Assembly: GCA_964016885.1 (NCBI GenBank)
Contig: OZ024743.1
Location: forward strand, 145,204,001-145,268,000
DNA from: Eledone cirrhosa
Lineage: Eukaryota
Direction: 5' to 3'
DNA: 64,000 nucleotides
A model generated the notes under the pieces. The model was not told the origin of the DNA and searched no databases. It saw only the letters and a program-made list of their open reading frames with translations. Below, piece after piece: positions 62,207 to 62,564 of the stretch. Position numbers and translations under genes: made by a program. Positions within the stretch are counted from its first letter, which is position 1. Each line of letters opens with the position of its first letter.

Positions 62207-62564
62207 CATCATTCATCATCATCATTTCATTTTGCGTCCACTTTTCCCTGCTTGCGGGGGTGGGACGGGAGCTGATTCTGGCTTGATTTCTGCAGCTGGG
62301 TGCCCTTCCTGGCGCCGACCTCGTTTGCAGTGAGTGCTGGGTGCTTTTTTGCCGTGGCGCCTCCTAGACCACTTTGCGATGGAATGATATGGACCCCGGT
62401 CCCTGTCGTCTCATTTCTGCAGCTGAGTGGGCTGGAGCGGTGTGAGGTGGAGTGCCTTGCTCGGGGGGGGGGGGGGGGGGGGGGCACATCGCCCGGTCTG
62501 GGGGTTGGGCTCGCGGCCTTTCGGTTGCGGGGCCAGTGCTCGGGCCACTGGGCCACGTGCCTCC
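62207..62564 (-). mobile_element. tRNA-derived SINE copy with extreme A-to-G (plus strand) divergence
   Basis: Aligns with 12001-12112, with a (CAT)n tail on the left. 26 of 32 comparator As are G here. Confidence 0.75.

What the first reader, a model, noticed from the sequence alone, without database searches (positions are those of the whole stretch)
62207..62564. SINE copy with one-directional A-to-G hypermutation: possible genomic retrocopy of an ADAR-hyperedited RNA
Seen: 62432-62555 aligns without gaps, apart from a 22 nt G run, to the related SINE head at 12001-12112. By hand count over ~100 columns there are 26 A-to-G differences and 1 G-to-A (e.g. TCAAACTCACAACC vs TTGGGCTCGCGGCC; TAACCACTAAGCC vs GGGCCACTGGGCC). 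Five of the six surviving As follow C or G. Known: ADAR disfavours a 5' G and prefers 5' U/A, coleoid cephalopods edit repeat dsRNA heavily, and inosine is copied as G by reverse transcriptase. Inference: an edited transcript antisense to the SINE was written back into the genome, possibly co-mobilised with the flanking 610 bp elements. Caveats: three T-to-G changes, the poly-G run and the position between long TA tracts also fit a base-calling or consensus artefact, and the comparator is itself diverged.
Basis: partly seen in the sequence, partly recalled or inferred. Interest (0 to 1): 0.85.

Follow-up and report, generated by a model that had tools for sequence, protein, structure and literature searches.

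The report
RNA edits fossilised in SINE DNA
A short jumping-gene copy has 51 of its 82 A letters changed to G on one strand in the pattern of the RNA-editing enzyme ADAR, as do copies at six other places in this genome, most likely because edited RNA was copied back into the chromosome as cargo of a neighbouring jumping gene.

Summary
Confirmed, and stronger than reported. Against a consensus of 29 genomic copies of this young SINE family (at least 23,702 copies), 62223-62565 has 51 A>G of 82 A, 2 T>C, 1 G>A and 5 transversions, with ADAR's 5' preference (after T 10/11, A 20/23, C 15/28, G 6/18). The edited strand is antisense to the SINE and sense to the flanking, unedited 610-bp elements. 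Six more hyperedited loci were found. Two are inverted SINE pairs with both arms A>G on one strand; one has a twin-priming-type inversion that flips the edited strand mid-SINE. Five of six antisense-edited copies have a same-strand 610-bp element within 1 kb downstream (1 of 59 others). Best reading: an ADAR-hyperedited read-through RNA was reverse-transcribed as upstream cargo of that element. An independent public run holds a contig that keeps at least 18 of 23 edits of a sister locus. For this copy itself no donor, target-site duplication or dsRNA partner was found. I found no paper on it in the library, but this scan has noted the same phenomenon on other DNA (32 notes in this genome, more in other genomes).

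The parts
62207..62565 (-). Full-length tRNA-type SINE (head at the 62565 end, ATG-repeat tail at 62207-62222) carrying 51 A>G changes on the + strand, i.e. T>C on its own sense strand; the Pol III A- and B-box-like motifs are altered and CpG rises from 6 to 21
   Evidence: box motifs judged by eye against recalled consensus; ARAGORN finds no tRNA in 4 of 4 loci
62463..62484 (+). 22-G run where the consensus has a 7-purine A/G stretch that full editing would turn into 7 G; the run is then expanded
   Evidence: parallel runs of 22 and 25 G at two other edited loci
61559..62170 (+). 610-bp non-autonomous element, copy 1, upstream on the edited strand; not edited (3 A>G of 161 A, 17 differences in all)
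62171..62206 (+). 36-bp TA/TG spacer between element 1 and the SINE tail
62566..63100 (+). TA/TATG tract of about 535 bp between the SINE head and element 2; its G pattern is like that of ordinary element flanks
63101..63710 (+). 610-bp element, copy 2, same strand, directly 3' of the edited SINE; not edited (1 A>G of 162 A); ends in a C2H2 zinc-finger coding remnant and a TATG tail; likely carrier of the RNA
   Evidence: (PF00096 E=2.4e-5, 25.0 bits against a cut-off of 25.2)
63819..64000 (+). 610-bp element, copy 3; the array runs on to about window+70 kb
11992..12112 (-).

Best explanation
This SINE copy carries a one-strand A-to-G hypermutation with ADAR's neighbour preference and is most likely the DNA copy of an ADAR-hyperedited RNA that was reverse-transcribed into the germ line as upstream cargo of the 610-bp element beside it. 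Shown: the spectrum, strand, context, confinement to the SINE, six sister loci and the link to a downstream same-strand 610-bp element. Inferred steps: (1) a read-through transcript ran across an antisense SINE into a 610-bp element. (2) The SINE part paired with an inverted copy in the same RNA, or with abundant sense SINE RNA, and ADAR deaminated about 62% of its A; the unpaired element was spared. (3) A LINE reverse transcriptase engaged the element's 3' end and TATG tail, primed in a TA/TATG tract, and read inosine as G. (4) Slippage on the new all-G stretch lengthened 7 G to 22. (5) The copy became heritable and, with its Pol III boxes altered, is predicted to be inactive.
For: 51 of 59 substitutions are A>G. 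Pooled over 10 edited pieces from 7 loci there are 267 A>G against 7 T>C, 9 G>A and 21 C>T; 5' T 0.60, A 0.55, C 0.31, G 0.20; p=7e-14. This matches the ADAR preference stated in PMC8586724 (passages). Inverted SINE pairs have both arms A>G on one genomic strand: C3:192.47 Mb (13 and 15) and C1:332.36 Mb (23 and 35). At C3:326.65 Mb one SINE is split into parts 3-199 and 195-326 on opposite chromosome strands, both A>G on the same RNA strand (17 and 35). An unedited 610-bp fragment lies between them (3 of 53 A). The order is the one twin priming gives for an element-SINE-element RNA on the element's sense strand (model in PMC10760644, passages). Sister copies are truncated at the 5' end of that RNA into TATG tracts (C8:55.02, C3:192.47). 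A same-strand 610-bp element lies within 1 kb 3' in 5 of 6 antisense-edited copies against 1 of 59 others, p=4e-6. Controls: 7 of 7 hits of a forced C>T pair and 1 of 1 of a forced G>A pair are not hypermutated, whereas 3 of 3 hits of a forced A>G pair are. The window's edit set overlaps the five other antisense copies no more than a site-weighted null (p 0.11-0.49), so it is a separate event. A 257-base contig of run X2 (depth 6.5) differs from the C1:332.36 arm at only 10 of 187 letters, while that arm differs from consensus at 35. It therefore keeps at least 18 of 23 edits and at least 5 of 12 other changes; separately edited copies differ from that arm at 28-44 sites.
Against: For this copy no donor was found: a SINE-variant pattern and an element-1-variant pattern each hit only the window. 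No inverted copy of the family lies in the window or the next 10 kb, so the dsRNA partner is inferred. No target-site duplication can be read in the microsatellite flanks. The element targets TA/TATG tracts, so element 2 could have arrived later. One of six antisense-edited copies and the sense-edited copy at C1:205.48 Mb have no such element. Two of four forced-GG hits were not clearly hyperedited (3 and 7 A>G). Most of the 43 hits that I examined (30 fetched as loci, 13 picked by hand, of 164) belonged to a related SINE family with native GG. The kind of run X2 is not on record, and its contig supports a sister locus, not this one. The autonomous partner LINE was not found. Twin priming is itself an unvalidated model.
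Confidence: 0.7

Rival explanations
1. Same ADAR-edited RNA origin, but not carried by the 610-bp element. Either an RNA ending in the TA tract was primed on its own and elements inserted into the tract later, or cDNA of an edited transcript overwrote a SINE already in place.
For: The element always sits in TA/TATG tracts (29 of 29 flanks). The copies at C1:332.36 and C1:205.48 Mb are edited with no element nearby. No donor or target-site duplication is visible here.
Against: 5 of 6 against 1 of 59 same-strand 3' association, although many ordinary copies also have TA tracts at that end. At C3:326.65 Mb an element fragment lies inside the inverted, co-copied segment.
Confidence: 0.18
2. An adenosine deaminase acted on the DNA strand of a SINE RNA:DNA hybrid (first-strand cDNA or an R-loop), which would also give A>G antisense to the SINE. 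ADAR activity on hybrids is recalled, not from a call.
For: The strand in this copy is the one such a hybrid would expose, the context is ADAR-like, and no hairpin partner is nearby.
Against: In two inverted pairs both arms are A>G on one genomic strand, so one arm is edited on the SINE's sense strand, and the copy at C1:205.48 Mb is sense-edited (43 T>C). A cDNA hybrid would not spare the element fragment at C3:326.65 Mb.
Confidence: 0.05
3. Sequencing, base-calling or polishing artefact (dark-cycle G calls, low-quality consensus between TA tracts, or cDNA reads entering the assembly).
For: 22-G run, long TA flanks, and a single assembly as the only source for this copy.
Against: Only A becomes G: 51 of 82 A against 1 of 90 C and 1 of 91 T. 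The context bias is present. Elements between the same kind of tracts are clean. The edited strand flips at an inversion and follows hairpin arms. An independent run holds a contig with a sister locus's edits.
Confidence: 0.05
4. Reverse-transcriptase misincorporation (dG opposite U under nucleotide-pool imbalance; mechanism recalled) during copying of the opposite strand.
For: It gives one-directional T>C on the SINE sense strand, as seen here.
Against: Changes stop at SINE borders and spare a co-copied element fragment; the neighbour preference is that of ADAR.
Confidence: 0.02

Closest known systems
ADAR-linked A-to-G hyperediting of avian retroviruses RAV-1 (Felder 1994) and avian leukosis virus (Hajjar and Linial 1995), as cited in PMC8586724 (passages; the originals not seen)
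   Same: Clustered one-strand A>G with ADAR context, captured through reverse transcription.
   Different: Those are infecting viruses in cell culture or hosts; here a cellular non-LTR SINE is edited on its antisense strand and sits in host chromosomes at several loci.
APOBEC-edited LTR retrotransposons fixed in vertebrate genomes (Knisbacher and Levanon, PMC4866542, passages; Zaranek et al., PMC2873906, passages)
   Same: A host deaminase leaves a burst of one-type changes in a retroelement copy that persists in the genome.
   Different: That is C-to-U on cDNA, G>A on the sense strand, LTR elements, vertebrates. That screen required G in the consensus, found invertebrates at noise level and does not contain the word ADAR in its main text. 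Here it is A>G, made at RNA level, in an invertebrate SINE.
A-to-I editing of repeats in coleoid cephalopod transcripts (PMC9068888, passages)
   Same: ADAR edits directed at repetitive elements in all tissues; SINEs dominate octopus repeats.
   Different: Known as a transient RNA change; here the pattern is in the DNA. That this genome is an octopus is recalled from repeat types and from scan notes, not tested.
LINE transduction and twin-primed 5' inversions (PMC10760644, passages); bipartite non-autonomous RTE elements (PMC5786205, passages)
   Same: Flanking RNA is carried along by a LINE enzyme; inversion and 5' truncation are seen at sister loci; the carrier is a short non-autonomous element with a microsatellite tail.
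   Different: The cargo lies 5' of the carrier and is hyperedited; the carrier's RTE identity is not shown here.

Membership tests
ADAR hyper-editing signature | Dense A>G on one strand, other changes rare | tested here: met
   51 of 59 substitutions
ADAR hyper-editing signature | 5' G avoided, 5' U/A preferred | tested here: met
   G 6/18 against T/A 30/34, p=9e-5; pooled p=7e-14; preference as
ADAR hyper-editing signature | Confined to a dsRNA-forming segment | tested here: inconclusive
   Met at two inverted pairs; for the window copy edits stop at the SINE but no partner lies in 74 kb examined
ADAR hyper-editing signature | Inosine in an RNA whose gene has A | not testable with these tools
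   Needs the donor locus with matched RNA and DNA
Target-primed retro-insertion (non-LTR) | Target-site duplication | tested here: inconclusive
   Flanks are TA/TATG microsatellite
Target-primed retro-insertion (non-LTR) | 3' simple-repeat tail on the RNA strand | tested here: met
   TA/TATG tract and element tail
Target-primed retro-insertion (non-LTR) | 5' truncation or 5' inversion | tested here: inconclusive
   Seen at C3:326.65, C3:192.47 and C8:55.02 Mb; the window SINE is full length
Target-primed retro-insertion (non-LTR) | Unedited donor locus elsewhere | tested here: inconclusive
   Three patterns found none; the markers may postdate insertion or the donor may be absent from this assembly
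tRNA-derived SINE | Pol III A/B boxes at the head, simple-repeat tail, high copy number | tested here: met
   Boxes by eye on the consensus (motif recalled); ATG tail; 23,702 matches; ARAGORN 0 of 4
Bipartite non-autonomous RTE (610-bp element) | 5' and 3' ends homologous to an autonomous RTE LINE | tested here: inconclusive
   Zinc-finger remnant and tail fit a LINE 3' end; no autonomous partner among 150 scored of 42,068 candidates, 3 longer frames followed
APOBEC DNA editing of retroelements | G>A on the element's sense strand | tested here: not met
   0 C>T on the + strand, i.e. 0 G>A on the SINE sense strand

The most novel reading that the evidence does not exclude
In this lineage ADAR acts as a germ-line DNA mutator by proxy. 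A small non-autonomous LINE derivative routinely drags upstream, hyperedited SINE RNA into chromosomes, and edited copies can be transcribed, edited again and re-copied: two loci share a junction found nowhere else and 10 of 12 edits. RNA edits would thus accumulate heritably over rounds, disabling SINE promoters and seeding new G runs and CpGs.
Probability: 0.35. Interest if true: 0.88.

Novelty: new variant of a known kind. Interest (0 to 1): 0.72.

Why it matters
RNA editing is normally erased with the RNA. These copies would be a lasting record that ADAR acts on retroelement-bearing RNA in germ-line cells before it is copied, which bears directly on the proposed role of ADAR in restraining retrotransposons (stated as a proposal in PMC9068888). 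Each edit pattern marks the RNA strand and molecule that was copied, so it tests twin priming and cargo capture from genome sequence alone. It also warns that some 'hyper-edited' RNA reads in these animals may come from edited DNA. It is rare: 7 loci found among at least 23,702 copies, a lower bound from targeted searches.

Tried and rejected
Raw-read check of this copy: 6 of 9 listed runs hold only small shares (at most 0.18) and no RNA holder is listed. Laying 4 runs gave no piece spanning the stretch. The tool skipped 62453-62564 as repeat, and X2 and X4 have no contig over 62387-62453. A hole proves nothing, so this is neither support nor refutation. X5 and X6 laid nothing on the sister locus, whose left flank proved to be a repeat, so no empty site could be read. 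Donor searches found only the copies themselves. The idea that the 3' TA/TATG tract is itself edited was rejected: G after G is 20 of 93 against 240 of 1206 in ordinary element flanks. A hammerhead core motif is absent from the element and the SINE. Rfam gave only sub-threshold microsatellite-driven matches (45 rows). The 341-aa frame at C4:26.78 Mb is microsatellite, not an autonomous LINE. The forced-GG pattern was confounded by a related SINE family (164 hits; 30 fetched as loci, 13 more picked by hand, 121 not examined). Of 4 forced T>C-pair hits only 1 is clearly hyperedited. Literature: nine searches listed no paper on ADAR-edited SINE or LINE copies fixed in a host genome. I saw listings and abstract starts only; the library lacks most subscription papers; PMC5785221 was not held. 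I read no supplements, and those of PMC4866542 tabulate other mismatch types and may bear on novelty.

Full report
Observation. The stretch 62207-62564 is a full-length SINE on the minus strand, set between TA/TATG tracts and 610-bp elements on the plus strand. A search of the window's own genome (3.0 Gb, C4:145.2 Mb) gave 40 scored matches of 3,930 candidates, of which 30 were fetched. The 29 other copies define a tight consensus, most within 2-9 differences. An exact 30-letter pattern counts 23,702 family members. Against this consensus the window copy has 51 A>G of 82 A, 2 T>C, 1 G>A, 0 C>T and 5 transversions; without the G-run block it is 44 of 75. Fifty-nine other copies, after removing the hyperedited hits, show at most 6 A>G. 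Only A turns to G: 1 of 90 C and 1 of 91 T do. Editing depends on the 5' neighbour: T 10/11, A 20/23, C 15/28, G 6/18 (p=9e-5 for G against T/A), the order given for ADAR in PMC8586724 (passages). The flanking elements are clean: 3 of 161 and 1 of 162 A.

Sister loci. Searches with the edited DNA and with short patterns that force two adjacent changes found six more hyperedited loci: C1:19.54 Mb (17 A>G), C3:192.47, C3:326.65, C8:55.02 (27), C1:332.36 and C1:205.48 (43 T>C in consensus orientation). This is a lower bound from targeted searches, not a survey. Controls: all 3 hits of the forced A>G pair are hyperedited, none of the 7 hits of a forced C>T pair nor the 1 hit of a forced G>A pair is. 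Against that, only 2 of 4 hits and 1 of 4 were clearly hyperedited, and one search was swamped by a related family. Pooled over 10 pieces there are 267 A>G against 7 T>C, with 5' T 0.60, A 0.55, C 0.31, G 0.20 (p=7e-14).

Why RNA, and which RNA. At C3:192.47 and C1:332.36 Mb two SINEs form an inverted pair and both arms are A>G on the same genomic strand (13 and 15; 23 and 35). That is what a hairpin in one transcript gives. It is not what a SINE RNA:DNA hybrid gives, since that would edit opposite strands. At C3:326.65 Mb one SINE is split into consensus parts 3-199 and 195-326 lying on opposite chromosome strands. Both parts are A>G relative to the same RNA strand (17 of 38, 35 of 44), and between them lies an inverted fragment of the 610-bp element with only 3 of 53. 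The order of parts is the twin-priming outcome for an element-SINE-element RNA read on the element's sense strand (model in PMC10760644, passages, which calls it unvalidated); it does not fit a SINE-sense RNA. A later DNA inversion could mimic it only with a coincident truncation. The unedited fragment argues against misincorporation and against deamination of the cDNA. The window has the same architecture, uninverted. Five of the six antisense-edited copies have a same-strand element 26-830 bases downstream, against 1 of 59 other copies (p=4e-6); the sisters were found by SINE sequence alone. I infer that the element supplies the 3' end that the reverse transcriptase engages and that the SINE travels as upstream cargo. 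The element ends in a C2H2 zinc-finger remnant and TATG tail and resembles bipartite non-autonomous RTE elements (PMC5786205, passages), but I did not find its autonomous partner.

The G run. The consensus has seven purines at this place, which complete editing turns into seven G. Runs of 22, 22 and 25 G stand at such fully edited purine stretches in three separate loci, so the run is a consequence of editing followed by slippage (inferred); its exact length may include consensus error.

Is it real DNA? For this copy no independent reads could be laid (see Tried and rejected). For the sister at C1:332.36 Mb, run X2 has a 257-base contig at depth 6.5 that differs from the edited arm at 10 of 187 letters, whereas the arm differs from consensus at 35 and from separately edited copies at 28-44. 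Seven of the ten differences are listed; by arithmetic the contig keeps at least 18 of 23 edits and at least 5 of 12 other changes. So nearly the same edited sequence exists in an independently sequenced sample. The run's kind is not on record (1.38 billion letters of contigs suggest genomic DNA), and 44 letters at the contig's other end did not lay on the flank, so it may be an allele, an orthologue or a sibling copy.

What is open. No donor, no target-site duplication and no dsRNA partner within the window and the next 10 kb were found for this copy. Inverted pairs are common in the family (7 of 59 copies have one within about 1.5 kb), so a partner in the lost 5' part of the RNA, or sense SINE RNA in trans, are both plausible. 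The window's edits overlap those of its sisters only as site preference predicts (p 0.11-0.49). C3:192.47 and C8:55.02, however, are the only two places with one particular SINE-spacer-element junction and share 10 of 12 edits (p=0.001, one of 15 pairs, rough null), which hints at a second round of editing on an already edited master.

Comparison and novelty. It works like ADAR hypermutation of avian retroviruses captured by reverse transcription (cited in PMC8586724) and is the RNA-level counterpart of APOBEC-edited LTR elements fixed in vertebrate genomes (PMC4866542, passages; PMC2873906, passages). The APOBEC screen covered LTR elements, required G in the consensus and found invertebrates at noise level, so it would not have reported this. 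Cephalopod ADAR editing of repeats is known at RNA level (PMC9068888, passages); a 2026 review of octopus transposons has no occurrence of 'ADAR' or 'RNA editing' in its main text (PMC12988792, passages). Nine searches listed no paper on ADAR-edited SINE copies fixed in a host genome, within a library that lacks most subscription papers; no supplements were read. This scan has noted the same phenomenon on other DNA: 32 notes in this genome and others in other genomes; none matched this sequence. These notes are unchecked and are not used as support.

Verdict. The feature is real in the assembly, far beyond chance and very likely biological. An ADAR-edited RNA copied back into DNA: about 0.88. 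Carriage by the downstream 610-bp element specifically: 0.70. New variant of a known kind; interest 0.72.

Noticed in passing
window 61559-64000 and L068 (to about window+70061): Array of at least eight whole or partial 610-bp elements on one strand separated by TA/TATG tracts; copies at 63819 and 66196 share nearly the same variants, as do the fragments at 65779 and 68173, suggesting a 2.4-kb tandem duplication.
   Followed up: partly
L071 (C3:192.47 Mb) and L070 (C8:55.02 Mb): Only two places in the genome carry this SINE-head/spacer/truncated-element junction; both are edited and share 10 of 12 edits but no other private changes: sister copies of one donor, perhaps already edited.
   Followed up: partly
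L070 and L121: They share 16 of 23 edits (p=0.002 against a rough site-weighted null, 15 pairs tested) without sharing other changes; unexplained.
   Followed up: no
G000:C4:113,616,441-113,619,502: Twelve matches of a SINE-body 32-mer, several 65 bases apart: apparently a satellite grown from a SINE segment.
   Followed up: no
L160 (C1:205.48 Mb): Sense-edited SINE (43 T>C in consensus orientation, 25-G run) with an unedited inverted copy about 1.1 kb away and repeated fragments of a second SINE family around it.
   Followed up: partly
L158 and L159: Unedited head-to-head inverted SINE pairs about 240 and 80 bases apart, the kind of locus that would make an ADAR substrate; 7 of 59 copies have an inverted partner nearby.
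   Followed up: no
L173:3582-4628: A 348-aa reverse-transcriptase-like frame (by eye) lying next to a 610-bp element that appears to have inserted into the same LINE.
   Followed up: no
window 27204-27813 (+) and 44279-44834 (-): Two further young 610-bp elements elsewhere in the window.
   Followed up: no
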